Assembly: GCA_004321885.1 (NCBI GenBank)
Contig: SCQK01000004.1
Location: 1 to 64,000 of the forward strand
DNA: 64,000 bases
Direction: 5' to 3'
Origin: Patescibacteria group bacterium
GTDB lineage: Bacteria > Patescibacteriota > Patescibacteriia > Magasanikbacterales > GWA2-37-8
The translations under genes were made by a program, and so were the position numbers. Below are positions 7,798 through 50,139 of this stretch, one piece after another. Position 1 is the stretch's first letter; each line of letters begins with the position of its first letter. Below the pieces are notes generated by a model. That model did no database searches. It had not been told where the DNA came from and saw only the letters and a program-made list of their open reading frames with translations.

Positions 7798-9989
7798 ACA
7801 TACATCGTTTTCGCCGCGTTGTAGAGCTGTTTCACCTCGGCCGCCGACAGGGCGCGGTTGTACACGCGGACGTCGTCAATGGAGCCATTAAAATAAGCTA
7901 AATTAGAAGCTCTTCTTAACACGCCAATATCCATCGCTGTCGCGTCAACTATATCACCAAACCAATTTCCAGGATTTGCTACTTGATTTACAGTCATTGT
8001 TTGACTGATACCGTCAATATACGCGCTCCAAGCAGAACCATTAGAAATAAATACAACCTGGTGCCAATTTGTATCTTGATAAGAATTGCTGGGAGTAACA
8101 ACATCACCTTGTAGCGCTTGATTGACACGATTCCAAACTTCTAATCTTTTATTTGTTTTATCAAAATAAAAAACTAATTCATCATCATAAGAACCAGGTA
8201 CGGCAATGCTAAAAAGAGCTAAATCCGCAGACAAGCTGGCCATTTTTGTCCAGAATGCTACTGTTCCTTGTTGATTTGTTAAAAATGAGGGAGAAGTTTT
8301 TTCTATATAATCACTCGTCCCATTAAAACTCATCGCCCCGCTGATTTTCCCCGCCACTTTCGTGGGCGTGTTGGCCGAAGTGCCATGATTTCTATTGCCG
8401 CTTTTATCCCAGACATTTAATCCGCTTATATCCCCGCTGTCCATCGTCCAATACCCCACCAGCCCGCGGCGGGGGGCCGAGTTTGAGTACTTTTTTTTGA
8501 CCGCGTTGTAGAGCTGTTTCACCTCGGCCGCCGACAAGGCGCGGTTGTAGACGCGGACATCGTCAAATACAAAATCCGCTGGTTGTATGTAGCTGACCTC
8601 TTGAAAAATGCCAATCATAAAAAGATTGGCATCAGTCGCGTCATCAAACCATTGTCCAGAATTTGCGCCTGAATAAATGGTGAGCGGCAATGACATATTA
8701 TCAACATAAACGCTTATAGCAGAACCACTGGAAGTAAAAACAATATGATGCCAATTATTGTCGTTAATAGTATTATTGGGCGTCACCATATTCAACGTGA
8801 GGGCTCCATTTTGTGTTAAAATAATTTGAAAGGACTTTGAGCTGTCTCCTCTGTAATCCCAACGCAACGCATCATCAACTACTCCATTTGTCGCGATTGA
8901 GACAAATGTGCTAATAGCAGCATAAGCATTTGACCTTTTTGCCCAAAAAGAAATAGCGCCTTGCGAGTCATTTATAAAAGACGGATTGCTTTTGGTGATC
9001 CACTCCGTGCTCCCGTCAAAATTCAGCGCGTTGCCTATTTTCCCGGCCACGAGGTCGGCCGAGGTGATATTGGTGCCAGTGCCGTGGTTTTGCTGGCCGC
9101 TTTTGTCGTAGACTTTCGTGCCGTTTATATCCCCACTATCCATTGTCCACCACCCCACCAGTTGTTTGCGAACCGGGGCTTTGGTAAAGTTGCTTTTGGT
9201 GGCCTGGTATAGTTGTTTCACCTCGGCCGCCGACAGGGCGCGGTTGTACACGCGGACGTCATCAAGGGAGCCAGGGAAATATGAACCGCCATTTTCCACG
9301 CCTATTTGCAAATTTTTGCTGGAAGCAGCATTTCTGGCCGCCAACCCGCTTGCTGTGCCATCCTGCGCGCCGTTTACGTATACATAAGCATTATCGCCAT
9401 TTCTTACCGCTGCAACATGATACCATGTGTTTGCATTTAATGTAGTCGTCCCCGTGACATCAATACCACCTGAACCAACATAAAAAAGTAATTTTTGCCC
9501 CGCCCCCAAATTACGGGTATCAAATATAAACCCCATCTCACTTGCTCCGCCATTATTATATTTATCTAAAATTAAACTAATGGTGTTCCAAGTTGAGGCT
9601 TTTATCCACGCGGACAGCGTAAAATTTCCTGTCCCAAAATTAAATGACGCGCCTGGAGCTTGTAAGAACTGTGAAGAGCCGTTAAGATTCACAGCTTCCT
9701 TTATTTTCCCCGCCACAACGGTCGGACTGCCTGTTGAAGTAGCGTGATTCTTGTAACCTGATTTATCGTAATAGGTTATCCCACTCACATCCCCGCTATC
9801 CATCGTCCACCAGCCCACCAGCCCTTGGCGCGGGGCCGCGGCGTGGGCGACGTCTACCCCCCCTAGCCCCCCCTTATTAAGGGGGGGGAACGCAAAAAGC
9901 GCGCCCCAGAGAGCGACGCAAAAAACCGACAGCATTGTGGCTCCACGCACAGCATGGAGCCAGCGATTTTTGGAAGGTTTGCGAGACAT
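7791..9989 (-). CDS. secreted protein with three LamG-like lectin domains
   Basis: 732 aa. Signal peptide ending VDVAHAAAP. LSAAEVKQLY motif x3. The first 31 codons lie in a 98-bp segment duplicated at 10758..10856. A family-D palindrome (9848..9885) encodes FPPLNKGGLGGVD in frame. Confidence 0.8.
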   Translation of the reverse strand: MSRKPSKNRWLHAVRGATMLSVFCVALWGALFAFPPLNKGGLGGVDVAHAAAPRQGLVGWWTMDSGDVSGITYYDKSGYKNHATSTGSPTVVAGKIKEAVNLNGSSQFLQAPGASFNFGTGNFTLSAWIKASTWNTISLILDKYNNGGASEMGFIFDTRNLGAGQKLLFYVGSGGIDVTGTTTLNANTWYHVAAVRNGDNAYVYVNGAQDGTASGLAARNAASSKNLQIGVENGGSYFPGSLDDVRVYNRALSAAEVKQLYQATKSNFTKAPVRKQLVGWWTMDSGDINGTKVYDKSGQQNHGTGTNITSADLVAGKIGNALNFDGSTEWITKSNPSFINDSQGAISFWAKRSNAYAAISTFVSIATNGVVDDALRWDYRGDSSKSFQIILTQNGALTLNMVTPNNTINDNNWHHIVFTSSGSAISVYVDNMSLPLTIYSGANSGQWFDDATDANLFMIGIFQEVSYIQPADFVFDDVRVYNRALSAAEVKQLYNAVKKKYSNSAPRRGLVGYWTMDSGDISGLNVWDKSGNRNHGTSANTPTKVAGKISGAMSFNGTSDYIEKTSPSFLTNQQGTVAFWTKMASLSADLALFSIAVPGSYDDELVFYFDKTNKRLEVWNRVNQALQGDVVTPSNSYQDTNWHQVVFISNGSAWSAYIDGISQTMTVNQVANPGNWFGDIVDATAMDIGVLRRASNLAYFNGSIDDVRVYNRALSAAEVKQLYNAAKTMYVK

Positions 9990-10157: not shown

Positions 10158-10718
10158 TTAAATTTGTTTCAAAATTCCTTTCACGCAAAATTCTTTATAT
10201 AAATCCGGGAATGGTTCTTCTTCCTCCGTTTTGTCCCTCATAAAACCGGCAATGGCATCCGCCAAACGAACAAAAACATCGCTTTCATCTCTGGCGCCTC
10301 TCACTTTCCGAACTTTTATTCTTAACTTTCGCAAACCGGCCGCGAATCTTCCTCTTTCTTCTCTTTTTAATCCATCCACCAAAACCGTCGCCGTGTACTC
10401 TTTTTCCGCCCTTTGAGAAATTGCTTTAGCCGTAGATAATATCGTCAAATCCACATACGCCTTTGAATCTTCATATTTTGAAAAGAACGCGCTATTTCTC
10501 AATAATCCGCTTCCCAAAATCAGCCGTAAGTACGAAATTCTGCTTCTTCTTCTCGCTTTTGACCATTTGTGGACTCCCTTTCCGCTCTCTTTTTCAATAT
10601 TTTTTAACTTTTCTTTTATCGCGTCACGCTCTTTTTCCAAAATTATCACGGAAACCAGAAATAATTTTCCTTCGGTATCTTGCCCTGTTTCATCCACATA
10701 ACAATAATACTTTTGCAT
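10158..10718 (-). CDS. DUF3800-like protein (paralog 2)
   Basis: MQKYYCYVDETGQD ... RDESDVFVRLADAIAG. The listed ORF extends to 10814, but the extra 96 nt belong to the duplicated LamG-3 5' segment. Confidence 0.6.
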   Translation of the reverse strand: MQKYYCYVDETGQDTEGKLFLVSVIILEKERDAIKEKLKNIEKESGKGVHKWSKARRRSRISYLRLILGSGLLRNSAFFSKYEDSKAYVDLTILSTAKAISQRAEKEYTATVLVDGLKREERGRFAAGLRKLRIKVRKVRGARDESDVFVRLADAIAGFMRDKTEEEEPFPDLYKEFCVKGILKQI

Positions 10719-10757
10719 ATCAGGACTATACCACCGAATTGCGTGAATGCCAAAACA

Positions 10758-10856
10758 GCGCGCCCCAGAGAGCGACGCAAAAAACCGACAGCATTGTGGC
10801 TCCACGCACAGCATGGAGCCAGCGATTTTTGGAAGGTTTGCGAGACATGCAATCGC
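10758..10856. repeat. duplicate of the LamG-3 promoter-proximal/5' coding segment (9893..9990)
   Basis: Essentially identical ~98 bp including the ATG and first 31 codons (MSRKPSKNRWLHAVRGATMLSVFCVALWGAL). After that the frame ends after 40 codons. Confidence 0.8.
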
Positions 10857-10902: not shown

Positions 10903-11271
10903 CTATCTCTTTCCTCCCAATATTATTTTATCCACCAGCATATCCAATAGGTCCTTTACGTTGGCCTGGGCTTCAACTTCGCTGGTGCTGTCCACGAATT
11001 TTTTCCACTGGGCCAAAATTACCGCGTCGTTCAGCTCGCGCACCGCGTTTTCCAGCTTCAGCCGCGTGTCAAAACTCACTTCGGTTTTGGATTTTATCAC
11101 CTGCTTGATGAACATCTGCAAAAACAGCAGTGATTTGTCGTCGCGCTTCTTGGCTTCCAGCAAACTTTGGGCGCCAGCCAGGTCTTGGCGGAGCTGTAAG
11201 TAGCCGACGCCCAACATGACGACAGCCCCCCCCAAGAGTATGACGACCAGCGTGTATAGGACTTTTTTCAT
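10903..11271 (-). CDS. hypothetical small membrane-anchored protein
   Basis: 122 aa; N-terminal TM helix; no recognisable domain. Confidence 0.35.
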   Translation of the reverse strand: MKKVLYTLVVILLGGAVVMLGVGYLQLRQDLAGAQSLLEAKKRDDKSLLFLQMFIKQVIKSKTEVSFDTRLKLENAVRELNDAVILAQWKKFVDSTSEVEAQANVKDLLDMLVDKIILGGKR

Positions 11272-11345
11272 AATTGATAAATTATTATTAAGTTTGGGAT
11301 TGCTTTACCCCTCCCCGCCTCCCCTTATAAATGGGAAGGGGGATG

Positions 11346-13325
11346 TTATTTTTTTAATCCGCTGCCTTCCCACCTCGCCCGCTTGCGGTCTTTGTAAAAA
11401 TTGAACAGCAAAAGCAGAGCCACCAGTATCAGCCCGATAGTGCGCCAGTCAAAAAGCTTGAGCCACCAGTTCTTGGCGAGCAACTCTATGTTGAAATGCA
11501 CGCCCCCGCCCTCGGCCACCTCAAACGGCCGGCTCTCGTAGACAATGTAGCCGGGCGCGATTACCTTTATGCTGTACATACCCGTGGGCACCAAAAACGA
11601 ATAACTGCCGCGGGCGTCCGTAACCTGATTGTTTTCCTGCTGGAAATCTTCGGCCGGCCACAGCTCGTATTGCCTGGTGTCGGGGTTGAGCCAATAAAGC
11701 GAAATCACGGCGCCCGGAATGCGCAGTTCTTTGTCGCCAATTTTTTCATATACATACCCTTCCGGGTCAACCACGGTGATCAGGCGGATTTCTTTTTTCC
11801 CCAGTTCAGGGTCATCATAGTCAATCACGTTTATAATCTCGTATTCGCCGGCCGGGATGGGCGACTTGACTTCGGCCGTGTACACGCCATCACCGTCCGG
11901 GTCAGTGTATTCAAACTCGGCCAGCACCAATTTTTCTTCCACTGACACCGGCTGGACCTGTTCGCGGGCCAGGGCCGGCATGGCAAAGGTAATTGAGTTT
12001 AACAAATCAGCCAGGGGCAGACTGTAGGCGCTGGCGCTTGGTTTTTTGGAACGGAAAATGACATAGCCCCTGATGCTTTTAACTTTTTTGTCCGGCCGGA
12101 TGGAGAGCTGAAGTATTTTTCCGGAAATAGTAATAATTTTTTGCTCGGCACGGCCCTTGTCGGTGAGGGTAAGAAAACTGCTGTAATCCACCATTTCGCC
12201 CAGACCGCGCGCGAACACGATGTCGGACGGGATTTTGTCTTTAAGATTTTTCGGCAAATAGCTGACGGGCACGGATTGGCCTTTGGCGCTTAAAGGCGCC
12301 AATCCGAGGGACTTGGACAGGCCGGGCAGGGCCAGTTTGGTATCGCCAATTTTCTGTAAATCGCTCATGCGGCTCACGCCAACCTTGCCGAACAAATTTT
12401 TAACCTCGGGAAATTTTTGCGCCAGAGCGGTGAATTCTTTAGGCAAAGGCGCGAAGACAAATTTCTTAATTTGACGCGGGTCAATATACTCCCACCCGCT
12501 ACGCATTGAGAGCGGGGTTTTCTTGGCCACCAATTCGCGCAAAGGAATTGTGACCTGCGGGGGTTTGAAAAAATCTTTGATATGCGCGAAGAATTTGGCT
12601 ATGGGAATTTTGGGGATGACGATTTTTTTCGGGATGAGCTTGGCTAAAAGCGATTTGACAATGCCCAGGCCGCGCGCGAGGGCGGAGGGCTGGGGTGGGG
12701 TAATGGCGGCTCCCTCCCCTATTAGGGGAGGGACAGAGGGCGGGGTTTGGGGTGGAGGAATGGACTCTCCCTCCCCTATTAGAGGAGGGACAGAGGGTGG
12801 AATTACTGGCGTCGACGCTCCACCGCCGCCCCCAGACGGCGGCTGTGAAGAAGGCGGGACTCCGCCGCGCGCGCTGGCCGGACGCCAGTCGGTTTTCACC
12901 GAGCAGTTGGCGCAGACGAAATTGATGATGCCCGCATTGTCGCCGCTGGCTTGCCCCAAAAATTCTCCGCGCGAATTGATTGTTACTCCGCTGAAATTTA
13001 TCCAGCCCAAATTTTGTCCCCAGGCATAGCCCGACAGACTGCCTTCGCCGTTGTTTTTCACCCCGCTCGTGGACGGGCTAAGATTTATCCATCCATAATG
13101 GTCGCTCCAGGCATAGCCGGTGAGCGCGGTATCGGTAATATGGATATTGCCCGTATTGCCATTGTCGGACCGAAAACTTATCCAGCCGATTTTTGAACTC
13201 CAGGCATATCTGTTGTACAGGTCAATGGCGCCGTCGGTGGATGAAGCAAAAGTGGGTAACACCAAAAAGACAGTTGCCATGACTGACAGTGAAATGGCCG
13301 CGAATAAAATTTTTCTTCGTGGCAT
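11346..13325 (-). CDS. hypothetical secreted/anchored protein (W-rich repeats, Pro-rich linker, prealbumin/CarboxypepD_reg-like domain, C-terminal TM)
   Basis: 659 aa. Signal peptide. Repeats GYAWS..GWINF. Tandem PPSVPPLIGEG units coincide with tandem family-D palindromes at 12690..12800. Confidence 0.45.
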   Translation of the reverse strand: MPRRKILFAAISLSVMATVFLVLPTFASSTDGAIDLYNRYAWSSKIGWISFRSDNGNTGNIHITDTALTGYAWSDHYGWINLSPSTSGVKNNGEGSLSGYAWGQNLGWINFSGVTINSRGEFLGQASGDNAGIINFVCANCSVKTDWRPASARGGVPPSSQPPSGGGGGASTPVIPPSVPPLIGEGESIPPPQTPPSVPPLIGEGAAITPPQPSALARGLGIVKSLLAKLIPKKIVIPKIPIAKFFAHIKDFFKPPQVTIPLRELVAKKTPLSMRSGWEYIDPRQIKKFVFAPLPKEFTALAQKFPEVKNLFGKVGVSRMSDLQKIGDTKLALPGLSKSLGLAPLSAKGQSVPVSYLPKNLKDKIPSDIVFARGLGEMVDYSSFLTLTDKGRAEQKIITISGKILQLSIRPDKKVKSIRGYVIFRSKKPSASAYSLPLADLLNSITFAMPALAREQVQPVSVEEKLVLAEFEYTDPDGDGVYTAEVKSPIPAGEYEIINVIDYDDPELGKKEIRLITVVDPEGYVYEKIGDKELRIPGAVISLYWLNPDTRQYELWPAEDFQQENNQVTDARGSYSFLVPTGMYSIKVIAPGYIVYESRPFEVAEGGGVHFNIELLAKNWWLKLFDWRTIGLILVALLLLFNFYKDRKRARWEGSGLKK

Positions 13326-13586: not shown

Positions 13587-16500
13587 ATGCCCATCAAACG
13601 AGTTCAAAAAGGACGACTAAAACCACCTGTCATTGCGAGACCTGAAAGAGGCCGCCTGCCCGCCTCTGGCGGGAAGCAATCCCCCGCGATTAAGAGAGGG
13701 ATCGCCGCGTCGCCCCGACGTAACGTCAGGGCTCCTCGCAATGACAAAGTGAAACCCGACACGAGCGGCGGTTACAGCGCCAAAAACATCACGGTGCTGG
13801 AAGGCTTGGAGGCCGTGCGCCGGCGGCCCGGCATGTATATCGGTTCCACGGGCACGACGGGCCTGCATCATCTGGTTTGGGAAGTGGTGGACAACTCCAT
13901 TGACGAAGCCATGGCCGGACATTGCGACCAAATTGACATCGCCTTGCTCCCCGGCCACCTGGTGGAAGTGCGCGACAACGGCCGCGGCATTCCGGTTGAC
14001 ATTCACCCCCAGCAAAAAGTCAGCGCCCTGGAAGTGGTACTCACCAAACTGCACGCCGGCGGTAAATTCGGCGACGGCGGCTATAAGGTCTCGGGCGGCC
14101 TCCACGGCGTGGGCGTGTCTGTGGTCAATGCTTTGTCGTCGTACGTAAAAGCCGAAGTGCATCGCGACGGAAAAATTTGGCTGCAAGAATACAAAAACGG
14201 CGGCCAGCCGGTAAAAAAAGTGCGGGCCATTGGCCCGGCCAAAGACACAGGCACGACCATTACTTTTTTACCCGACGCGAGCGTTTTTGAAACATTGGAT
14301 TTTGACTGGAAGACAATCGTGGACCATATCCGCCAACAGGCCTATCTAAACAAGGGCGTGCTTATTTCCGTTTCCGACCGGCGCCAGGGCGAGGAAAAAA
14401 CCAAAGACGGAACGGCTCTCCCTTATCCCAATCCCTCATATCAATTTTATTTTGAAGGCGGCATTGCTTCTTATGTGCGCCACCTGAATCAAAACAAAGA
14501 ACTGAAAAACGAAACTATTTTTTACGTTGATAAAGAGACCGATGGCGTGCGCGTGGAAACCGCTTTGCAATACACCGACGAATACACCGAATCGCTGTTC
14601 GCCTTTACCAACAACATCCACAATCCCGAAGGCGGCACGCATGTGGCTGGTTTTCGCGCGGCTCTCACACGCGGCCTGAACACCTACGCGCGCAACAAAA
14701 ATATCCTGAAAGAAAAAGACGCGAACCTGACCGGCGAGGACGCGCGCGAGGGCTTGAACTGCGTGATTTCGGTAAAGGTGCGCGAGCCCCAGTTTGAAGG
14801 TCAGACTAAAGCCAAACTGGGAAACACCGAGGTCAAGACCGCGGTGGAATCGGTGTTTGGCGACGCGTTTTTAATTTATTTGGAAGAGCACCCGCGGGAC
14901 GCCGAGGCCATCGTGGGCAAGTGTATCTTGGCGTCCAAAGCGCGCAACGCGGCCAAAATTGCGCGCGACGCCATCCTGCGCAAGGGCGCGCTGGAAGGCT
15001 TTACTTTGCCGGGCAAGCTGGCAGATTGCTCCAGCCGTCACGCCGAAGAGAGCGAATTGTTTTTGGTGGAAGGCGACAGTGCCGGTGGCTGTTTTTTTGG
15101 CTCAACTAAGCTAAAATTAGCCGACGGTCGCAGTTTATCTTTCAAAGAATTGGTGGAGGAAAACAAACAAGAAAAGAAAAACTATTGCTATACAATAAAA
15201 GAGGACGGCGATATTGGCATTGAACTGATAAAAAATCCACGAATGACGAAAACAGGCGCGGAAGTGATAAAAGTTATATTAGATAATGACGAGGAAATTA
15301 TTTGTACTCCGGACCACAAGTTTATGTTAAGGAACGGAGAATACAAGGTGGCACAAAATCTGACTCCCTGCGATTCATTAATGCCTCTATATAGGAAAAT
15401 ATCTGAAAAGAGTGGCAGAATCACAATTGAAGGATATGAAATGACCTTTAACCCGAAAGATGCAAGATGGATTTTCACTCATCTACTGGCAGATGATTAT
15501 AATTTACGAAACGGGGTGTACCCCGATGATAGAGGCACCAACAAGCATCATGTTGATTTTAATAAGTTAAATAATAACCCAGATAATATAGTAAGGATGA
15601 CTCACGAAGATCATATGGCTTATCATGCCATGATGCTTCAATTTGGTTTGCACAGAGCGGATGTAAAAGAAAAATCCAAAAAAGCTCACCAATCCGAGGG
15701 GTTTAAAGAAAAAATGAGCAGAATCATGAGTACTCCGGAAATGAAACAAATGTTAAGCCGCAGAGCGAAAAAGCAATGGGAGAACGAGGAATATAAAAAG
15801 TTCATGACGCAAAAATTCTTGGAATTTTACAATTCTAATGAGGAATACAAAAAAAAGAATAATGATTTTCTTAATAAGGCGCAGGAAGAATATTGGGCTG
15901 ACAAAGCCAACAGGAAAAAACAAGCCGAAAGAGTCACTGCGCATTTCAAGGAACATCCCGAAAGAAAAAAATGGCTTAGGGATTTCGCGAAACGGGAATG
16001 GACAGACAAAAATCTGCTTAAATGGCGAGCCGGGAAAACCAAGGAGCAATGGACTGACGAGTTTAGAAGGAAACGAAAAGAAGCATATGACAAGGTCTAC
16101 TTGACCAGCAGTCTGGCTTTCGCCAAAAAGCTTCTTGAATCCAAAGAAGATATGCTGAAAAAATATGACACTGCGCGAATTAATCTTCCGAAAAAAAATA
16201 CCAACCTGTTGAGCTTGAGGACTTTAATTGACAGATTTTTCAACGGCCAAAAACAAAACTTCCTTGAGGCGGTGGCGAATTATAACCATAAAATAATAAG
16301 AATTGAAAAAGTTGCCGAAAAAATGGACGTATATGATATTGAAGTGCCGCACACGCACAACTTTGCATTGGCCAGCGGCGTGTTCGTGCACAATAGCGCA
16401 AAATCCGGACGCGATCGCGAACACCAGGCCATACTCCCCTTGCGCGGCAAGGTGCTGAACGTGGAGCGCGCGCGCTTGGACAAAATCATCGGCAACAACG

Positions 16501-24577: not shown

Positions 24578-25339
24578 ATGCCCAAGCAACCTTATAAAAT
24601 CATTGCTGAAACTGCGGATTATCTGGTGGTGGAAAAACCGGCCGGCCTGTTGACGCATTCCACCGCCAAACGCGAGCCAGACTCACTGGCTGAGTTGTTG
24701 GCAAAAAAATACCCGGAAATGCGCGAGGTGGGCGACTCCCCGGCCGAACGCCCGGGCATTGCGCACCGGCTGGACAAAGAAGCCTCGGGCTTGCTGGCGG
24801 CGGCGCGCACCCAAAAGATGTTTGAACATTTGAAAAAACAGTTCCAGGAACGAACCGTGGAAAAAGAATACATCGCCCTGGTACACGGCAAGGTGGCAAA
24901 AGATGTCGGCGAAATAAACTTCCCCATCGGCCGAGCGACGAACAAGGAGAGGATGGCGGCCAGGCCGTTTACCCCTCCCTCGCCACCACACCAAAAATTT
25001 TGGTGTGGTGGCGAGCCCTCCCCTTCTAAGGGGGAGGGGAAAATGGCCAGCACTGAATTTGAGGTGGAAAAGCGATTCATCAATTTCACCCTATTGCGCG
25101 TCAAAATCCACACCGGCCGCATGCACCAGATTCGCGTTCATTTGCTCGCCTACGGCAACCCGCTCGTCGGCGACCCGCTCTACATCAAAAGAAAACAAAA
25201 GCGCAAATGGGACCAGGCGCTGGGACGACTTTTCTTGCACTGCGTAAAATTAGTGTTCAAAGATTTGAATGGGGCGCCGCGAACATTTACTTCCCCGTTG
25301 CCGCTTGAATTGGAAAATTTTCTTAAAAAAATAAAGTAG
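24578..25339 (+). CDS. RluA-family pseudouridine synthase
   Basis: ADYLVVEKPAGLLTHS ... GIAHRLDKEASGLLAAA ... HQIRVHL. In-frame family-D-like palindrome 24968..25045 encodes PFTPPSPPHQKFWCGGEPSPSKGEGK. Confidence 0.8.
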   Translation: MPKQPYKIIAETADYLVVEKPAGLLTHSTAKREPDSLAELLAKKYPEMREVGDSPAERPGIAHRLDKEASGLLAAARTQKMFEHLKKQFQERTVEKEYIALVHGKVAKDVGEINFPIGRATNKERMAARPFTPPSPPHQKFWCGGEPSPSKGEGKMASTEFEVEKRFINFTLLRVKIHTGRMHQIRVHLLAYGNPLVGDPLYIKRKQKRKWDQALGRLFLHCVKLVFKDLNGAPRTFTSPLPLELENFLKKIK

Positions 25340-25925: not shown

Positions 25926-25957
25926 AACAACTGGATTCCCCCGACTAAGTCGGGGGA

Positions 25958-26302
25958 ATGACAATTATGACCGAAACAACCACAAAAGCGGCAGTCTACA
26001 AGCCCGGCATGACCGTGAAGGTGCACCAAAAAATCAGGGAATTAAACGTTAAAGGCGAGGAAAAAGAACGCATTCAGATTTTTGAAGGCATGATTATCGC
26101 GGCCAAGCACGGCAATGAGCCGGGCGCCACCATTACGGTGCGCAAGGTTTCAGGCGGCGTGGGCGTGGAAAAAATTTTCCCGATTCATTCGCCCATCATA
26201 GAGAAAATAGAGGTGGAGCGCGAATACGCGGTGCGGCGCGCCAAACTCCACTATCTGCGCGACCCGAAATTTAAGAGGCGGCTGAAAGAGAAAACGAAGT
26301 AA
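25958..26302 (+). CDS. rplS: 50S ribosomal protein L19
   Basis: [13 protein letters not shown] ... [11 protein letters not shown] ... [31 protein letters not shown]. Confidence 0.85.
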
Positions 26303-26304
26303 AT

Positions 26305-26400
26305 AAAAAAACTGGCTCCATACTCTGTGTGGAGCCAGTTTGCAATACGGCTCCACAGCCCCGACTAAGTCGGGGACTATGGAGCCAGCTACTGACCAGC
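26305..26400. repeat. family-A palindromic element copy
   Basis: ctggctccatactctgtgtggagccagtttgcaatacggctccacagccccgactaagtcggggactatggagccagc. Confidence 0.7.
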
Positions 26401-26416
26401 GATTGGGAGCGGGATT

Positions 26417-29341
26417 TTATCCTTTTAAGTACTTCCCGGTCCAGCTTTTTTTGCTCTTCATAATATCACGCGGAGCGCCCGCGGCCACAATCTCTCCGCC
26501 CTTGTCCCCGCCCTCTGGCCCCATGTCTATCACCCAATCGGCTGAACGTATCACGTCCAGATTGTGCTCTATCACCAGCACGGTGTTGCCTTTGGCCACC
26601 AATCTGTTCAACACTTCCAACAAATGTTTTATATCTTCAAAATGCAAGCCAGTGGTGGGTTCGTCCAAAATATATAATGAATGTCCGGACGCGCTGCGCG
26701 ACAGCTCGGCGGACAGCTTTATTCTCTGGGCTTCGCCGCCCGAAACCGTGGTGGCCGGCTGGCCCAGCTGAACATAGCCCAAACCGATTTCGCGCAACAC
26801 GCCCAACTTGCCGGCGATGGGCGGAACGTCGTTAAAAAAAGCAAAGGCCTCGTCTACGGTCATACGCAAGACATCGGCGATATTCTTGTTGCGGTAATGT
26901 ATCTCCAGGGCCTCGCGATTATAGCGGTCTCCGCCGCACTCATTGCACTGCATGTACACGTCGGCCAAAAATTGCATGGGGATGCGCACATAGCCCTCAC
27001 CGGCGCAGGCCTCGCAACGGCCCCCGCCCTTCACGTTAAAACTGAACTTGCCGGCGTCGTAGCCGTTCATTTTGGCTTCGGGCAAACCGGCGAACAAATC
27101 GCGAATCAAAGTAAACAGCCCCGTGTACGTAGCCGGATTACTGCGCGGGGTGCGGCCGATGGGCGACTGGTCCACGGTAATTACTTTGTCAATATTTTCA
27201 ATGCCTTTAATTTTTTTGTGCTCGCCCGGCAAATCTTTGGCCCGATAAAAATGGCGGGCCAGCTGTCTGCCCAAAATATCCACGATGAGCGAAGACTTGC
27301 CCGAACCAGACACGCCGGTCACGCACACGAATTTGCCCAAGGGGATGTCGGCGTCCACATTTTTCAAATTAAAGGCCCTGGCGCCGAGGATAGAAATTTT
27401 TTTGTTGGATTTTTGCAGACGCGCCCCCATTTTTATGGGCAGGACGCCCCGGCCGACTAGATACTTTCCCGTAACCGATTTTTTATTTTTTTTTATCTGT
27501 TGTAAACTGCCGGCCGCCACGATTTCGCCGCCGGAGAGGCCGGCGCCCGGCCCCATATCAATTAAATAATCCGCGCCGGCCATCATAGCGCTGTCGTGCT
27601 CCACCACTATTACAGTGTTGCCCAAATCGCGCAAAAATTTCAGGGCGCCGATGAGTTTGGCGTTGTCTTTGGGATGCAGGCCCACCGAAGGCTCGTCTAA
27701 AATATATATAATGCCGGTAAGGCCCGACGACAGCTGGCCGGCCAAACGCACGCGCGTCACCTCTCCACCCGAGAGCGTGTTCATGGCGCGCCCCAGCGAC
27801 AAGTATCCCAAGCCCACCTCCTGTAAATTTTGCAAGCGCTTGATTGTTTCTTTGATGATGGTTTCACCGTGCTGGGCAAAAACTTTGCCTCCCATCCCCC
27901 ATTTGTCCCCCCCTCTGGCAGAGGAAGAAAGCTTTTCCAAAACCGACACGGCTTGCCCGGCCGACAGCTCGGAAATATCCGCGATGCTGTACTGGCCCAG
28001 CTTCACGGCCAATGACTCCACGCGCAAACGTTTGCCATGGCACAGGGAACACACCTGCTCGCGCATGTACTGTTCTATTTCACCGCGCACATAATCAGAA
28101 TCGGTCTCCAAATGCCGCTGGGTCAGATTGGTAATCACCCCGGAAAAAACGGTTTTCTTTCCGTCTATTTCGTATGTCTCGTTGTCGCCGTACAAAATCA
28201 GCTTCATCTGCGCATCGGAAAGTTCTGCTACTGGCGCATTCAGAGAAAAATCATGTTTCTGCGCGACCGCGGCCAGAATTTTTTGGTACCACGTTTGATT
28301 GCCGGTAATGCGGGTCCAGGGCTGGATAGCGCCCTCGGCCAAAGTAAGCCGCTTGTTAGGCGCCACCAGCTCCGGGTCAACTTCCATGGTCACGCCCAAA
28401 CCAGTACAACGCGGGCAGGCGCCATAAGGGCTGTTAAAACTAAAACTGCGCATGTCAATCGCCGGCATTACTTTGCCGCATTTAGCGCACAGCCCTTCGG
28501 TGGAAAACAACACTTCCCTCCCCCTTTTTAAGGGGAAGGCGGGGTGGGGGTAAGACGCCGCAATCACACTGCCGTTGCTCAAATCCAAGGCCGTCTCCAC
28601 CATTTTGGCGATGTTGGGCTGTTTCTTGGCATTCTGGGTGGAAATATTTCCCACCACCAGTTCCACGTTGTATTTTTTATTGGGCAAAAAACCAAAACGC
28701 GCGAATTCGTTTAGTTTCATCAGCTCGCCGTTTACCCGCACCGTGTCAAAACCCGACTTTTCCACTTTGTCCAGCAATGCGGCATGACTGGGTTCCCCTC
28801 CCCCTTTTAGAGCTTGTCCCGAACTTGTTTCGGGAGGGAGGACAGAGGAGGGGGTATTTGGCGAGGATGGGGTCAATGGAGACAACACCCACACCTCGGA
28901 ACTATTCCGCGTCATCTTTCTCACTTCCTCGGTAATCTGGCCGGGCGTAAACGACATCACTGGCACGCCGCAACCGGGGCAGTATTGCGCGCCCACGCGC
29001 GCGAAGAGCAAACGCAAATAATCGTAAATCTCGGTGATAGTGCCCACGGTGGAACGCGGATTCTGCGAAGAACTTTTCTGGCCGATGGCGATGGTGGGAG
29101 AAAGCCCCTCCACGCTGTCCACGTCCGGCTTGTCGCGCACGTCCATAAACTGGCGCGCGAAAGAAGACAGCGACTCGGCGTAGCGGCGCTGGCCCTCGGC
29201 GTAAATTGTGTCAAAGGCGAGCGAGGATTTTCCCGAACCGGACAAGCCGGTAATCACTACCAGCTTGTTCTTGGGAATTTCCACGTTTATATTCTTCAAG
29301 TTGTGTACTCTCGCCCCTTTGATGATTATTTTATCAGCCAT
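26417..29341 (-). CDS. uvrA: excinuclease ABC subunit A
   Basis: Two ABC modules ([23 protein letters not shown]; [10 protein letters not shown]), zinc-finger cysteines. Contains two in-frame family-D palindromes (28513..28553, 28793..28860). Confidence 0.9.
28793..28860. repeat. family-D G/C palindromic element (cctcccc-tt..aa-ggggagg type) inside uvrA
   Basis: ggttcccctcccccttttagagcttgtcccgaacttgtttcgggagggaggacagaggagggggt. Other copies: 9848..9885, 11300..11345, 12690..12800, 17406..17448, 24968..25045, 28513..28553, 34478..34528, 48735..48850, 49514..49554, 63893..63945. Confidence 0.7.
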
Positions 29342-34470: not shown

Positions 34471-34543
34471 GCCCACGTCTTTTTCCTCCCCTTGTTAAGG
34501 GGAGGATTAAGGAGGGGTATTCTTAATTATTAAAGAGAAATAT

Positions 34544-36364: not shown

Positions 36365-36545
36365 GCTGGCTCCATAGTCCCCGACTAAGTCGGGGCTGTG
36401 GAGCCGTATTGCAAACTGGCTCCACACAGAGTATGGAGCCAGCGGGTGTAGAAAATCGCTGGCTCCATAGTCCCCGACTAAGTCGGGGCTGTGGAGCCGT
36501 ATTGCAAACTGGCTCCACACAGAGTATGGGGTCAGCGAGCAAAGG
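36365..36545. repeat. two tandem family-A palindromic elements
   Basis: cgctggctccatagtccccgactaagtcggggctgtggagccgtattgcaaactggctccacacagagtatggagccagcg repeated twice. Confidence 0.8.
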
Positions 36546-37884: not shown

Positions 37885-37950
37885 ACATAAATTTCAAATC
37901 TCCTTTTTAGATAGTATAGCAAACAAAAACGCCCCTGTTAAGGGGGCGTT

Positions 37951-38410
37951 TGTGGTTCATGGTTATAAGCCGAATTTTGTACCCCGACGTTACGTCGGGG
38001 CGATGTTCATTTCTCTGGTCTTGACATTGCTGTCAAAATCTTAGCGAGCGAACTTTTTATCCCGACTAAGTCGGGACTCTGCTCTTGCGCCAGACAGGGC
38101 TTGGCACTCTTCGACGTTGCCGCCGAAGGGAGTATGGTAGCTTTGGTCTCGAGAACCACAACTCCCATACACTTTTCACCTTTGACGAACCCCGACTAAG
38201 TCGGGGTGAACGTCCGCCTGTGGCGGACTCTCATGAATCGCTAGTATTGTCTCTGTGCCGCTTTCCCTACGCCGACGTTGCCGCCGACGTGGCGGGTGTT
38301 ACCCGTTGCCTTTTTCTTTACCGGCTAGTTCCGCTAAGGGCGGACAGACGGAAAGGGCGTTCGGACTTTCCTTCCCGACTAAGTCGGGACGAACATCTGC
38401 CACGAACTGA
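37951..38410 (-). ncRNA. rnpB: RNase P RNA (bacterial type A-like)
   Basis: Minus strand contains GGAAAGTCCGAACGCC (CR-I), GGGTAACACCCGCC (GGTAACGCC-like), AAAGGTGAAAAG, and ACAAAATTCGGCTTATAACC (CR-V, ACAGAACCCGGCTTA-like). P1 GTTCGTGG / CCATGAAC. Followed by terminator 37924..37950. Three cccgacttagtcggg hairpins occupy peripheral helix positions (one at P3). Confidence 0.75.
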
Positions 38411-48731: not shown

Positions 48732-48804
48732 AGGTCGTTCCCCTCCCCTTGATATCTGCGGATATTTACTCATTCGTTCGGAAGTAAAAGTATAAACTTT
48801 TACT

Positions 48805-50139
48805 TCACTCACTCATTTCGTAAATAAGGGGAGGGTTAGGGAGGGGTAAAATAATTTCACCCTTTAAGACCCAAACATCAGCGGAAGTAATCTTAACATC
48901 CAAAATTTTTCCAATCAAATTTTTTGCGCCGGCAAACTGCGCGAGCTTCATTTCCGAAGAGTTGCCCGAGCAAATCCCTGCCTCGCATTTGTCCGCCAAT
49001 ACCGAAACTGTTTTGCCGATGTATTTTTGATTTTTGCGATAAGTTGTTTCTTCCATCAATTCTTGTAAAATCTGCCAGCGGCGCTTTTTTTCTAGGCGCG
49101 GCACATCATCTTTGAAGGCCCTGGCCGCGGCCGTCCCACTGCGCTGACTATACATGGCCGTGTAGGAAATGTCAAAATCACACTCTTTGTACAGAGCCAC
49201 CGTGTTTTGAAACTGTTTCTCGGTCTCGCCGCAAAAACCCGCGATAATATCCGTGCCAATGGCGATACTTGGTTTGGCCTGGCGGATTTTTTTTATCAAA
49301 TCAATATATTGCTCCCGCGTGTACTGGCGATTCATCTTGCGCAAAATTTCATTATCCCCGCTTTGAACCGGCAGGTGCAGATAATTCACCTGCTTGGGCA
49401 GTTTCAGCGCCTCTATTTGCGCGTCGGAAAAATAACGCGGGTCCGCGGCGGTAAAATGCAAGCGCTCCAACCCAGCCAACTTATTCAGCTCTTTCAGTAA
49501 ATCGACGAAACTGTCCCCCTCCCCCTTTTTAAGGGGGAGGTTGGGTAGGGGTAAATCCGGATCGCGGTAATTATTCACCACCTGCCCGAGCAGAATAATT
49601 TCTTTCGCGCCATTTTCAATCGCTATTTTTACCTCGTTAATAATTTCTTTGGCCGGCCGGTTTTTCTCGCGGCCGCGCGCCTGCGGCACCACGCAATAGG
49701 TGCAATAATTATCACAGCCGGTCTGAATAGTGATAAACGTTTGAAATCTACTCGTTCGCGCCGGCGCCAACTCTAAATAATCTCCAAGGTCAGCGCCTCC
49801 CAGCCATCTTGACAGCACCCCCATTTCGTGTATCGGAAAATACAAGTCAACCCCTTTTAGCCTGCTTTTTAACTTCCCGTCTTTGTCGCGGCCCGGCATA
49901 CAGCCGGTAACAGCGATTGTCAAATCCGGCTTTTTTGCCTTAAGTTGGCTCCAATTTCGCACTAGCCCGTGAACGCGGTCTTCGGCGCTTTGGCGCACCG
50001 AGCAGGTATTGACAATTAGTAAATCCGAGTTTTCGGCTTTGGCGCTTCTGGTCATCCCCAAGAAATTCAAAAAACCGGCGATTCTCTCTGAATCGTTTTT
50101 GTTCATCTGACAGCCGAAGGTAACGAGAAAATACTTCAT
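48805..50139 (-). CDS. miaB: tRNA-i6A37 methylthiotransferase (radical-SAM MTTase)
   Basis: FLVTFGCQMNKNDSE ... IQTGCDNYCTYCVVP (CxxxCxxC) ... TRAM-like C-terminus. In-frame family-D palindrome 49514..49554 encodes [16 protein letters not shown]. Confidence 0.85.
   Translation of the reverse strand: MKYFLVTFGCQMNKNDSERIAGFLNFLGMTRSAKAENSDLLIVNTCSVRQSAEDRVHGLVRNWSQLKAKKPDLTIAVTGCMPGRDKDGKLKSRLKGVDLYFPIHEMGVLSRWLGGADLGDYLELAPARTSRFQTFITIQTGCDNYCTYCVVPQARGREKNRPAKEIINEVKIAIENGAKEIILLGQVVNNYRDPDLPLPNLPLKKGEGDSFVDLLKELNKLAGLERLHFTAADPRYFSDAQIEALKLPKQVNYLHLPVQSGDNEILRKMNRQYTREQYIDLIKKIRQAKPSIAIGTDIIAGFCGETEKQFQNTVALYKECDFDISYTAMYSQRSGTAAARAFKDDVPRLEKKRRWQILQELMEETTYRKNQKYIGKTVSVLADKCEAGICSGNSSEMKLAQFAGAKNLIGKILDVKITSADVWVLKGEIILPLPNPPLIYEMSE

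What the first reader, a model, noticed from the sequence alone, without database searches (positions are those of the whole stretch)
28513..28860. Family-D G/C-rich palindromes inserted in frame in uvrA, miaB, an rluA-family gene, a LamG signal peptide and a surface protein
Elements of the form cctcccc(c)tt-NN-aaggggagg occur at >=11 sites. Several are intragenic and frame-preserving: uvrA x2 (LKRGREVLF; [31 protein letters not shown]), miaB ([16 protein letters not shown]), rluA-family (PFTPPSPPHQKFWCGGEPSPSKGEGK), LamG-3 (FPPLNKGGLGGVD), and 11346..13325 (tandem PPSVPPLIGEG). Intergenic copies function as terminator-like hairpins, for example 17406..17448. This indicates a very active palindromic element population tolerated inside essential proteins.
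Basis: partly seen in the sequence, partly recalled or inferred. Interest (0 to 1): 0.65.

Follow-up and report, generated by a model that had tools for sequence, protein, structure and literature searches.

The report
Hairpin repeats inside essential bacterial genes
A tiny-genome (Patescibacteria/CPR) bacterium carries about 13 copies per 64 kb of a 25-55 bp hairpin repeat, most of them sitting in frame inside intact genes such as uvrA, gyrB and miaB, and the same repeat in other bacteria brackets a small endonuclease gene (DUF559) of unknown function that may be what spreads it.

Summary
The window comes from a Patescibacteria (CPR) genome. It holds 13 loci of one repeat: a 9-10 bp stem CCTCCCC(C)TT/AAGGGG(G)AGG, a 3-nt A/T loop, a 1-5 nt linker and a G-rich tail GGnAGGGGTA.

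Nine or ten loci lie inside intact ORFs and keep the frame:
- uvrA, twice
- miaB, internal and C-terminal
- an RluA/D-type pseudouridine synthase gene
- a LamG protein gene
- a surface protein gene, twice

The inserts are absent from orthologues of 52-71% identity or from solved homologues. In UvrA they fall in predicted coil. The claim that intergenic copies act as terminators is not supported, because none has a T-run. Three of five intergenic copies place their GGAGG arm 7-8 nt before a start codon.

The unit is not specific to this genome. It occurs across phyla and in frame in a CCA-adding enzyme, LeuRS and LipB elsewhere. In Photobacterium it forms extragenic REPIN-like arrays. In 10 loci it brackets DUF559 (Vsr-like endonuclease) genes in inverted orientation. 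Reciprocal profiles confirm the link, with no hits in 669 kb of controls.

Best reading: REP-like selfish hairpins, possibly mobilised by DUF559. In coding DNA only stop-free copies in loops survive. Mobility itself was not shown.

The parts
9853..9890 (-). Family-D unit (hairpin plus G tail) in frame in the LamG-domain protein gene 7791..9989(-). It encodes FPPLNKGGLGGVD between the hydrophobic core of the signal peptide and the AHA cleavage motif.
   Evidence: a paralogue (1811..3889) lacks about 10 aa here
11304..11344 (-). Intergenic unit between the stop of the surface-protein gene and a small membrane-protein gene (10903..11271)
12711..12800 (+). Two units 57 nt apart (12711-12745 and 12768-12800), in frame and antisense in the surface-protein gene 11346..13325(-). 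They encode PPSVPPLIGEG twice.
16805..16842 (+). Unit in frame in gyrB (13587..17117, which also carries an intein). It encodes SSPARGEDEGGAG inside a 39-residue stretch where S. aureus GyrB has 3 residues.
17413..17453 (-). Intergenic unit. Its GGAGAGG arm ends 7 nt before the nusG ATG (17459). It has no T-run.
24968..25043 (-). Composite in the RluA/D-type pseudouridine synthase gene 24578..25339(+). It consists of the C-rich tail, a nested hairpin with an 18-bp perfect stem and 1-nt loop (24979-25015, second family) and the D hairpin. It adds about 22 aa in frame and folds at -62 kcal/mol as RNA.
28516..28554 (+). Unit in frame and antisense in uvrA, site 2 ([13 protein letters not shown]; net about 9 aa). 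The site is a beta-hairpin loop.
28795..28858 (+). Unit in frame and antisense in uvrA, site 1 (22 aa insert). A nested hairpin TCCCGAACTTGTTTCGGGA (28817-28835) sits between its two stem arms.
27894..27929 (-). Possible degenerate copy in the third variable region of uvrA ([11 protein letters not shown]). The match is weak.
   Evidence: (E 0.17)
34483..34521 (+). Intergenic unit between tRNA-Leu and the RNase J gene, 26 nt from the ATG at 34544
48740..48851 (+). Unit split by 75 nt at the miaB/miaA junction. Its tail and one stem arm (48826-48851) encode MiaB's last 15 residues (ILPLPNPPLIYEMSE, with part of the spacer). The other arm (48740-48750) puts GGGGAGGGG 8 nt before the probable miaA ATG at 48731.
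49516..49556 (+). Unit in frame and antisense in miaB 48805..50139(-). It encodes [16 protein letters not shown], a net 8 aa more than B. uniformis MiaB.
63888..63942 (.). Full two-tailed palindrome (C tail, hairpin, G tail; -33 to -35 kcal/mol). On the minus strand its tail ends 8 nt before the ATG of the Nramp gene (63883).

Best explanation
Family D is a population of very small, non-coding, REP-like hairpin repeats. Each unit has a stem CCTCCCC(C)TT/AAGGGG(G)AGG, an A/T loop, a short linker and a G-rich tail ending GGGGTA. I read them as selfish dispersed DNA, not as host regulatory sites.

Shown:
- The copies are dispersed on both strands. They show little avoidance of coding DNA: 9-10 of 13 lie in ORFs, and 89% of the window is coding.
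- Every intragenic copy keeps its host ORF open.
- The inserts are lineage-specific gains.
- They sit at loop positions that other lineages fill with other palindromes.
- On either strand the hairpin reads as a C-run followed by a G-run. Translation therefore always gives a Pro-rich then a Gly-rich peptide of the PPLxKGG type. The hairpin core is stop-free in 39-61 of the 64 possible loops, depending on the frame.

Inferred:
- Insertion happens anywhere, and selection keeps only in-frame, stop-free copies in surface loops of proteins that must stay functional. This is the logic established for Rickettsia palindromic elements.

Shown about origin:
- The same unit brackets DUF559 (PF04480, Vsr/EDxHD-like PD-(D/E)XK endonuclease) genes in CPR, Gammaproteobacteria and unidentified metagenome contigs. 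One unit lies upstream and one downstream in inverted orientation, with the tails pointing at the gene.
- The C-rich tail often encodes the protein's C-terminal YLP-stop.
- In Photobacterium, Marinomonas and Doudnabacteria the unit also forms inverted doublets and tandem arrays.

Inferred about mechanism:
- The solitary copies in this window are non-autonomous derivatives of the ends of such DUF559 cassettes. They would be copied in trans by a DUF559 nuclease encoded elsewhere in the genome, by nuclease-triggered break repair or a transposition-like reaction. The relationship would be analogous to REPIN-RAYT.
- Some intergenic copies have been co-opted, or are tolerated, as the Shine-Dalgarno region of the downstream gene.
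For: Family and enrichment.

Host genes are intact and the inserts are absent from relatives:
- UvrA.
- MiaB.
- Rlu.
- GyrB.
- LamG paralogue.

Loop location: in the AF2 model of UvrA, residues 159-183 and 267-273 are coil with pLDDT below 50, between E149-155/H186-196 and E258-264/E276-280.

Independent insertions in other lineages:
- A D-like copy lies at a different uvrA site in L081. D-like tail-plus-hairpin copies lie at the same hot spot in L081 and L082.
- Units lie in frame in a CCA-adding enzyme, LeuRS and LipB/LplA in unrelated metagenome contigs.

Frames and stops.

Hairpin stability is -17 to -35 kcal/mol. Three of 8 stem pairs show compensatory changes.

Spread across phyla and REPIN-like arrays.

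DUF559 link:
- Jackhmmer found DUF559 in 3 of 80 hairpin-selected loci, each flanked by inverted units. It found none in the 82 loci fetched through UvrA or in the window.
- In Photobacterium a DUF559 gene abuts the array.
- Six of six DUF559 homologues chosen by protein similarity alone carry the units at both ends.
- A profile built only from those six finds the window's copies full length, with 0 hits in 20 Markov windows.
- The window-only profile hits beside DUF559 in 6 of 7 loci, '+' upstream and '-' downstream. It gives 0 hits in 669 kb of control loci.
- About 50 of 64 DUF559 homologues end in peptides that the unit encodes.

DUF559 belongs to the Vsr/EDxHD clade, which includes a proven homing endonuclease (PMC3424549, PMC3239194; PDB 3HRL match).
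Against: - No DUF559 gene, RAYT or any transposase is present in the 64-kb window. The rest of this genome could not be reached.
- Mobility was never observed. There are no empty sites, because the nearest UvrA is 68-71% identical. Ten Doudnabacteria contigs carrying a DUF559 cassette are identical, so there is no polymorphism.
- No target-site duplication or conserved target could be defined.
- Net insert sizes of 24-30 nt are shorter than the 36-40 nt unit, so the boundaries are not resolved.
- The bracketing hairpins could be just the ribosome-binding region and 3' stem-loop of a mobile gene cassette, not sites on which the nuclease acts.
- C-run/G-run hairpins are simple sequences, so some similarity across phyla could be convergent.
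- The AF2 model is of modest quality (mean pLDDT 62, 26-sequence alignment).
Confidence: 0.6

Rival explanations
1. The repeats are REP/MITE-like selfish hairpins, but something other than DUF559 mobilises them. Candidates are a RAYT/IS200-IS605-type single-strand transposase, another IS transposase acting on the two-tailed form as terminal inverted repeats, or recombination/gene conversion. On this view DUF559 cassettes merely share or attract these hairpins.
For: - The architecture resembles REP and REPIN: a hairpin of about 23 nt (about 36-40 nt with its tail), inverted doublets and tandem arrays.
- Hairpins attract secondary insertions. Nested hairpins occur in the Rlu, uvrA and miaB/miaA copies. 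REPs are known targets of IS elements (Tobes and Pareja 2006, cited in PMC3116915).
- The window has no DUF559 gene.
Against: - No Y1 transposase or other transposase is seen in the window or next to the arrays examined.
- The GTAG/CGTC tag of RAYT-linked REPs (PMC3733652) is not conserved at the expected end.
- The geometry around DUF559 is tight and repeated in 10 loci. The gene's stop codon lies inside the C-rich tail, which argues for one unit rather than chance co-location.
Confidence: 0.15
2. The hairpins are host-selected functional elements, such as transcription terminators or attenuators, mRNA stabilisers, stems that sequester the Shine-Dalgarno sequence, or a hairpin/G-quadruplex switch. 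The intragenic copies would then serve translation pausing or regulation.
For: - The stems are stable and show compensatory changes.
- Three of five intergenic copies place GGAGG/GGGG 7-8 nt before a start codon, paired to a CCUCC-like arm.
- The 3' stem arm plus the tail gives four G-tracts. Potential quadruplex motifs number 8 against 2.2 expected, and 5 of them lie in D copies.
Against: - No intergenic copy has a T-run. The real terminator-like sites in the window have other sequences.
- No Rfam family matches at the curated (gathering) thresholds.
- Copies occur in both orientations relative to transcription, and in unrelated genes at non-homologous positions.
- Orthologues function without them.
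- The same unit forms extragenic tandem arrays elsewhere.
Confidence: 0.1
3. The palindromes arise locally and repeatedly, by template switching, snap-back synthesis or slippage on C/G runs. They are not copied from one locus to another, and the shared sequence reflects mutational bias and convergence.
For: - Some nested hairpins are perfect and nearly unique, such as the 18-bp stem with a 1-nt loop in Rlu. That is what strand switching would produce.
- The unit is low-complexity, built of C-runs and G-runs.
- The surface-protein pair is a local 57-nt tandem duplication.
Against: - The copies share an asymmetric, non-palindromic part (linker plus GGnAGGGGTA tail) that hairpin formation cannot generate.
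- Profiles trained in other organisms find them full length, with 0 hits in controls.
- The extended pattern has 0 matches in 100 shuffles.
Confidence: 0.07
4. The inserted peptides are selected at the protein level as a reusable Pro/Gly-rich linker or interaction motif. The DNA palindrome would be a by-product.
For: All intragenic copies encode Pro-rich then Gly-rich peptides. Similar peptides recur at the same UvrA hot spots in other lineages.
Against: - The peptides differ with reading phase (LKKGEG, LKRGRE, LNKGGLGG, LIGEG), while the DNA is what is conserved.
- Four or five copies are intergenic.
- The hosts are functionally unrelated.
- The predicted structure is disordered coil.
Confidence: 0.04
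5. The pattern is an artefact: MAG mis-assembly or chimeric joins at repeats, or the host genes are pseudogenes.
For: The sequence is a metagenome-assembled genome with no close relative. Repeats do break assemblies: most contigs bearing DUF559 are shorter than 2 kb.
Against: - All host ORFs are full length with conserved catalytic motifs on both sides of every insert.
- Every insert preserves the frame.
- Equivalent in-frame copies occur in independent assemblies from other samples.
Confidence: 0.03

Closest known systems
Rickettsia palindromic elements (RPE; Ogata et al. 2000, as summarised in PMC10969869)
   Same: Both are palindromic selfish repeats found many times in frame inside unrelated housekeeping genes of a reduced-genome bacterium. 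In both cases the insertions are compatible with protein fold and function.
   Different: RPEs are about 100-150 bp, A+T-rich and restricted to Rickettsia (as summarised in PMC10969869). Family D is 23-55 bp and built of C/G runs, encodes Pro/Gly coil, occurs across phyla and is linked to a DUF559 gene. No sequence relationship was tested or is expected.
REP / REPIN / BIME elements with their RAYT transposases (PMC3116915, PMC3337134, PMC3733652, PMC3479197)
   Same: Both are short G+C-rich imperfect palindromes in high copy number. Relatives of family D form inverted doublets with a spacer and tandem arrays. In both systems a single small nuclease-type gene is flanked by the repeats in inverted orientation.
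   Different: REPs are extragenic by definition, whereas 9-10 of 13 copies here are intragenic. The flanked gene is a PD-(D/E)XK Vsr-like DUF559, not an IS200-like Y1 transposase. There is no conserved GTAG/CGTC tag. The conserved end is a G-rich tail GGnAGGGGTA on the 3' side of the hairpin.
Small dispersed repeats (SDR) and MITEs of cyanobacteria (Elhai et al. 2008, Genome Res 18:1484; known to me only from memory and from its citation in PMC3116915)
   Same: Both are very small hairpin-forming repeats (tens of nt) that nest within one another and within mini-transposons. D-type hairpins occur nested in a cyanobacterial composite bounded by the inverted repeat CTACGGTGTACACACAAGTC.
   Different: Identity with any named SDR family could not be checked, because the paper is not held. 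Frequent in-frame residence in essential genes is, to my knowledge, not a feature of SDRs.
EDxHD / Vsr-like homing endonucleases (I-Bth0305I, PMC3239194) and the DUF559 family (PF04480; PDB 3HRL)
   Same: The gene bracketed by D units is a DUF559 protein. Its clade contains a proven homing endonuclease and free-standing selfish genes.
   Different: I-Bth0305I is encoded in an intron and has extra NUMOD DNA-binding domains. The cassettes here carry a bare nuclease domain of 115-130 aa bounded by hairpins. No activity on hairpins is known for any member.
Intragenic ERIC, Correia, BOX and other MITE in-frame fusions (PMC10969869, PMC3184786)
   Same: These are also non-autonomous repeats that occasionally sit within ORFs and extend or fuse reading frames.
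   Different: Those elements are 100-300 bp, mostly intergenic and confined to a genus or family. Here intragenic copies are the majority and the unit is far smaller.

Membership tests
Rickettsia palindromic elements (RPE) | Palindromic repeat inserted in frame in protein-coding genes without disrupting them | tested here: met
Rickettsia palindromic elements (RPE) | Length about 100-150 bp and membership of the Rickettsia RPE sequence families | tested here: not met
   The units are 23-55 bp and the host is a Patescibacteria genome. Sequence comparison with RPE consensus sequences was not run.
REP / REPIN (RAYT-associated) | Imperfect G+C-rich palindrome of 20-40 nt present in many copies | tested here: met
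   13 loci in 64 kb; stems of 9-10 bp
REP / REPIN (RAYT-associated) | Extragenic location | tested here: not met
   9-10 of 13 loci lie inside ORFs. Relatives in Photobacterium are extragenic.
REP / REPIN (RAYT-associated) | Conserved GTAG or CGTC tetranucleotide at the 5' end of the palindrome (PMC3733652) | tested here: not met
   The conserved end is GGGGTA followed by A, T or G, and it lies 3' of the hairpin on the G-rich strand. GTAG is present in only some copies.
REP / REPIN (RAYT-associated) | Inverted doublets (REPIN) able to form a long hairpin | tested here: inconclusive
   Doublets of the form tail'-H1-spacer-H2-tail occur in Photobacterium, Marinomonas, Doudnabacteria and L101. 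The window has only one two-tailed single hairpin (63888-63942) and split copies.
REP / REPIN (RAYT-associated) | The repeats flank a RAYT (IS200-like Y1 transposase) gene | tested here: not met
   Pfam scans of about 50 ORFs in the window found no such gene. In relatives the flanked gene is DUF559. The rest of this genome is not available.
MITE | Terminal inverted repeats plus a target-site duplication | tested here: inconclusive
   Only the two-tailed copy has symmetric ends. No consistent flanking direct repeat was seen. Boundaries cannot be set without empty sites.
MITE | A parent IS with matching ends and a transposase | tested here: not met
   There is no transposase in the window. The only gene found between matching ends elsewhere is DUF559, which is not a known transposase.
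Hairpin units bracketing DUF559 cassettes (a grouping defined here, not a published family) | Architecture of hairpin, short linker and G-rich tail ending GGGGTA/GGGGTT | tested here: met
Hairpin units bracketing DUF559 cassettes (a grouping defined here, not a published family) | Reciprocal profile match between the window's copies and units next to DUF559 genes chosen by protein similarity | tested here: met
   9 window loci at E below 0.01 and 0 hits in 20 Markov controls; 6 of 7 DUF559 loci hit, and 0 hits in 669 kb of control loci.
Hairpin units bracketing DUF559 cassettes (a grouping defined here, not a published family) | A DUF559 gene in the same genome | not testable with these tools
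   There is none in the 64-kb window. The source contig and genome could not be retrieved. DUF559 does occur in other Patescibacteria.
Intrinsic (Rho-independent) terminator | G+C-rich hairpin immediately followed by a T-run | tested here: not met
   No intergenic D copy passes the scan. The only D copy that passes is 28516-28539(-), inside uvrA.
Any curated RNA family (Rfam 15) | A match at the family's gathering score | tested here: not met
   the only hits are RNase P, four tRNAs and the DUF3800-II RNA

The most novel reading that the evidence does not exclude
DUF559 proteins are a very widespread endonuclease family with a solved structure but no known role. They may be the trans-acting partner of a cross-phylum family of REP-like hairpin repeats. 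That would make a second system of repeats plus nuclease, parallel to REPIN-RAYT. In Patescibacteria these hairpins have gone on to colonise the coding sequences of essential genes, where they persist as Pro/Gly loop insertions.
Probability: 0.4. Interest if true: 0.8.

Novelty: new variant of a known kind. Interest (0 to 1): 0.66.

Why it matters
1. CPR/Patescibacteria genomes are about 1 Mb and are thought of as streamlined. Here at least seven housekeeping genes in 64 kb carry selfish palindromes in frame: uvrA, gyrB, miaB and an Rlu gene from family D, and queA and recO from other families. This parallels Rickettsia. It suggests that weak selection in small-population symbionts lets tiny repeats remodel protein loops.

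2. It warns annotators and people who model structures or build trees. Lineage-specific 'insertions' in CPR proteins may be repeat DNA, not adaptive domains.

3. The unit's tight association with DUF559 genes gives a concrete, testable hypothesis for a large domain of unknown function. It would also explain how REP-like repeats spread in genomes that lack RAYTs.

4. The design of the sequence, with a C-run then a G-run on both strands, explains why such a palindrome is unusually tolerable in coding DNA.

Tried and rejected
- The literal motif with a 0-8 nt gap gave one exact hit. I replaced it with fuzzy and profile searches.
- I looked for close relatives to obtain empty sites. The nearest UvrA among 5.8 billion proteins is 68-71% identical, and GTDB species genomes reach 63-67%. 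No empty sites are available.
- I tried to recover the source contig. UvrA and the Nramp protein are not on record, and the DUF3800 protein is found only on a 1.1-kb Logan contig.
- The terminator hypothesis was rejected.
- Rfam has no matching family.
- Pfam on about 50 ORFs found no transposase or RAYT in the window. The ORF 10903..11271 sits just downstream of a D unit in 'cassette' geometry, but it is a small membrane protein, not DUF559.
- I looked for polymorphism among ten contigs carrying the Doudnabacteria DUF559 cassette. All are identical.
- G-quadruplex idea: enrichment is only mild (8 against 2.2). I keep it as a minor rival.
- Flanks showed no convincing target-site duplication or target motif.
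- In the metagenome hits, apparent long ORFs around high-GC copies mostly had no Pfam support (L152, L160, L146), so I did not count them as in-frame cases.
- The paper by Elhai et al. 2008 on small dispersed repeats could not be read.
- Literature searches found nothing on in-frame palindromes in CPR, and nothing linking DUF559/Vsr-like genes with REP or REPIN.


Full report
**What the window is.** UvrA, the gene under the finding, is intact: 974 aa, aligned end to end with Geobacillus UvrA 2R6F. Its exact sequence exists once in the protein collection, as 'Patescibacteria group bacterium' on an 86,683-bp contig. The next relatives are 68-71% identical, and those that carry names are Magasanikbacteria-like or other Patescibacteria MAGs. 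The other genes are ordinary housekeeping and cell-envelope genes. About 89% of the window is coding.

**The observation.** The interval 28513..28860 holds two copies of the motif inside uvrA, at 28516-28554 and 28795-28858.
- The literal consensus matches exactly once.
- Allowing C4/C5 runs and one mismatch gives 8 sites.
- Listing all C-run/G-run sites and orienting them shows that the hairpin is followed on one side by a 1-5 nt linker and a G-rich tail GGnAGGGGTA. The unit is therefore asymmetric. Only the copy at 63888-63942 has a tail on both sides.
- A profile of the copies finds 13 loci and one weak candidate.
- The extended pattern matches 4 times, against 0 in 100 shuffles.
- Perfect hairpins with stems of at least 9 bp number 21, against about 3.7 in simulations.
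- As RNA the units fold at -17 to -35 kcal/mol.
- Over 19 units from several organisms, 3 of 8 stem pairs show compensatory changes.

**In-frame residence.**
- UvrA has a 22-aa insert and an insert of about 9 aa. Both are absent from 7 orthologues of 52-67% identity and from 25 orthologues of 67-71% identity. In an AlphaFold model of modest quality (mean pLDDT 62), residues 159-183 and 267-273 are coil with pLDDT below 50, lying between regular elements.
- MiaB has 8 extra residues relative to B. uniformis MiaB. Its last 15 residues are encoded by a second, split copy at the miaB/miaA junction.
- The RluA/D-type synthase has about 22 extra residues between two strands that are conserved in RluD.
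- GyrB also carries an intein. It has a copy inside a 39-residue stretch where S. aureus GyrB has three residues.
- A LamG protein has about 10 extra residues between the hydrophobic core of its signal peptide and the AHA cleavage motif, judged against a paralogue in the same window.
- The surface protein has two copies 57 nt apart.
- In all, 9-10 of 13 loci are intragenic, close to the 89% coding fraction. Every host ORF stays open.

**Why coding DNA tolerates it.** The hairpin reads as a C-run followed by a G-run on both strands. Translation in either orientation therefore gives a Pro-rich and then a Gly-rich peptide. The hairpin core is free of stop codons in 39, 61 and 56 of the 64 possible loops in the three frames. 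The copies use all three phases. The peptide varies with phase while the DNA is conserved. This argues against selection on the peptide.

**The terminator claim.** No intergenic copy passes a scan for a hairpin plus a T-run. The only D copy that passes lies inside uvrA. Three of five intergenic or junction copies instead place their GGAGG/GGGG arm 7-8 nt upstream of a start codon: nusG at 17459, the Nramp gene at 63883, and the probable miaA ATG at 48731. Rfam has no family at these sites at its curated (gathering) thresholds.

**A wider phenomenon in this clade and this window.** UvrA orthologues show five insertion hot spots that different lineages fill with different palindrome-derived peptides.
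- At the DNA level, L081 carries a D-like copy at a different uvrA site. L081 and L082 carry tail-plus-hairpin copies at the window's site 2.
- Within the window, the copies in the Rlu gene and at uvrA site 1 contain nested hairpins of two other families. Second members of those families lie in frame in recO and queA. QueA has two inserts relative to T. maritima QueA.

**Distribution outside the genome.** The 80 loci that were fetched have G+C contents from 0.34 to 0.73. Their units share features the pattern did not require: a stem one pair longer, a TTA/TTG/CTA linker, and a GG(G)nGGGGTA tail.
- In three of these contigs the unit lies in frame in a CCA-adding enzyme, in the editing domain of LeuRS, and in LipB/LplA.
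- In cyanobacterial plasmids (Pseudanabaena, Nostoc, Dolichospermum) it is part of a larger composite with its own inverted ends.
- In Photobacterium sp. GJ3 it forms extragenic tandem arrays of a unit of about 145 nt: C-tail, hairpin, 33-nt spacer, hairpin, G-tail. That is an inverted doublet, as in REPINs and BIMEs.

**The DUF559 link.** The ORF that abuts the Photobacterium array is a DUF559 protein.
- A jackhmmer search of all ORFs in the loci held found DUF559 in three of the 80 hairpin-selected contigs. It found none in the 82 loci fetched through UvrA or in the window. In each of the three cases the gene is flanked by two units in inverted orientation with the tails pointing inward.
- I then took six DUF559 homologues chosen only by protein similarity and contig length. 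They come from Candidatus Doudnabacteria, a Patescibacteria MAG, Marinomonas agarivorans and three unnamed metagenome contigs, one of which has the gene inside a diversity-generating retroelement. All six have the unit 5-55 nt upstream of the start codon. All six have a C-tail plus hairpin at or over the stop codon.
- A profile built only from those six upstream units recovers nine of the window's loci full length at E below 0.01. It gives no hit in 20 simulated windows.
- The window-only profile hits beside DUF559 in six of seven loci, '+' upstream and '-' downstream. It gives no hit in 669 kb of control loci.
- Of 64 homologues, about 24 end in PPLTPP..GGE-type tails. Another 26 end in YLP-stop, which in L132 is the C-rich tail itself (TAC CTC CCC TAA).
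- DUF559 matches PDB 3HRL, an 'endonuclease-like protein'. It is grouped with Vsr and with the EDxHD homing endonuclease I-Bth0305I (PMC3424549, PMC3239194).
- I found no paper that links it with REP-like repeats.

**Interpretation.**
- Shown: a real, enriched, structured repeat family; lineage-specific in-frame insertions in loops of intact essential genes; occurrence across phyla; REPIN-like doublets in relatives; and a specific, reciprocal association with DUF559 cassettes.
- Inferred: the window's copies are non-autonomous derivatives of the cassette ends; a DUF559 nuclease encoded elsewhere in the genome spreads them; and selection filters coding insertions to stop-free, in-frame, loop positions.
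- Not shown: any mobility event, any target site, or a DUF559 gene in this genome. No closer relative, source contig or polymorphism could be obtained.

**Comparison with known systems.**
- The in-frame behaviour works like Rickettsia palindromic elements (PMC10969869). The element fails the RPE size and lineage criteria.
- The sequence architecture and the gene-flanking geometry work like REP/REPIN-RAYT (PMC3116915, PMC3337134). It fails three defining features: extragenic location, the GTAG/CGTC tag, and a Y1 transposase partner.
- I therefore file it as a new variant of a known kind. It is a REP-like hairpin family with a different candidate partner enzyme, and in a CPR genome it lives mostly inside genes.

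Noticed in passing
window 20826-22070 (queA, minus strand); hairpin at 20937-20955: QueA is 414 aa. Relative to T. maritima QueA it has two in-frame inserts. One is about 47 aa at residues 88-134 (LRMERSGMKQSLAVTNGIASSSRVLGTPHND...). The other is 17 aa (DCHPELVSGSPVASRQA), encoded by the palindrome TCCTGAAACAAGTTCAGGA. That palindrome family is also nested in the uvrA site-1 copy and appears in the UvrA of another lineage (P0010).
   Followed up: partly
window 60760-60787 (recO, 60221..60973, minus strand): A hairpin CCACCACACCAAAA/TTTTGGTATGGTG lies in frame in recO (ACHHTKNFGVVVG). It belongs to the same family as the perfect hairpin with an 18-bp stem and 1-nt loop that is nested in the Rlu copy (24979-25015).
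   Followed up: partly
window 13587-17117 (gyrB): GyrB is 1176 aa and contains an intein (Pfam Intein_splicing over residues 511-936), in addition to the family-D copy.
   Followed up: no
window 37950-38408 (minus strand): The RNase P RNA match spans 459 nt against a 367-position model. It contains copies of a third hairpin family, (A)CCCCGAC-T(T/A)A-GTCGGGG(T), at 37982-38000 and 38189-38207. The same family occurs at 20775-20793 and 25935-25959. Palindromes may also be inserted into a structured RNA gene.
   Followed up: no
window 1705-1795, 4231-4305, 7687-7777, 9937-9955, 10796-10814, 26312-26341, 36366-36520, 41585-41672: A separate, abundant hairpin family CTGGCTCCA...TGGAGCCAG lies mostly intergenic and often near the three DUF3800 genes (749..1324, 10158..10814, 61336..61878). 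A DUF3800-II RNA (Rfam RF02961) lies at 61251-61314.
   Followed up: no
window 7514-7587 (+), inside ORF 5309..7651 (-): The longest ORF of the second LamG paralogue runs across a tRNA-Arg(CCG) gene on the other strand, so its N-terminal extension is probably spurious. Even so, the extension begins with MTKKF, as does the paralogue 1811..3889.
   Followed up: no
UvrA orthologues P0002-P0094 (alignment A2); L081 1361-1426, 1997-2092 and 2543-2662; L082 1213-1359, 1930-2061 and 2515-2655: Five positions in UvrA (consensus positions about 145, 162, 239, 445 and 613) are recurrent insertion hot spots. Different Magasanikbacteria-like lineages carry different palindrome-derived peptides there, such as CHPELVSGS.., CHPERSEGS.., VIARSEATKQS.. 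and PPLPRPSGELSKG. One UvrA reaches 1055 aa.
   Followed up: partly
L216 (and L215-L224) 596-2348: A DUF559 cassette with D-type hairpins at both ends sits inside a diversity-generating retroelement, between the bAvd accessory gene and the reverse transcriptase. It lies downstream of a target gene with LamG and FGE-sulfatase domains.
   Followed up: no
L085, L091, L115, L124, L136; plasmids of Pseudanabaena, Nostoc and Dolichospermum (hits H1-H9): This is a cyanobacterial composite element of about 170 nt. It is bounded by the inverted repeats CTACGGTGTACACACAAGTC / GACTTGTGTGTACACCGTAG and contains two D-type hairpins in tandem. In two Nostoc plasmids it overlaps annotated genes (a polyketide synthase and a TIGR03032 family protein).
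   Followed up: partly
one search hit table (P0121-P0240): Most contigs that carry this DUF559 subfamily are shorter than 2 kb. That is expected if the gene is flanked by repeats that break short-read assemblies.
   Followed up: no
window 23838-23911 (+): A tRNA-Ile with anticodon TAT is predicted. Most bacteria read AUA with a modified CAT anticodon.
   Followed up: no
window 9500-64000: Sigma-70-like promoter consensus matches are about twice the shuffled expectation in all three segments scanned: 46 against 18.9, 43 against 17.3, and 30 against 17.6.
   Followed up: no
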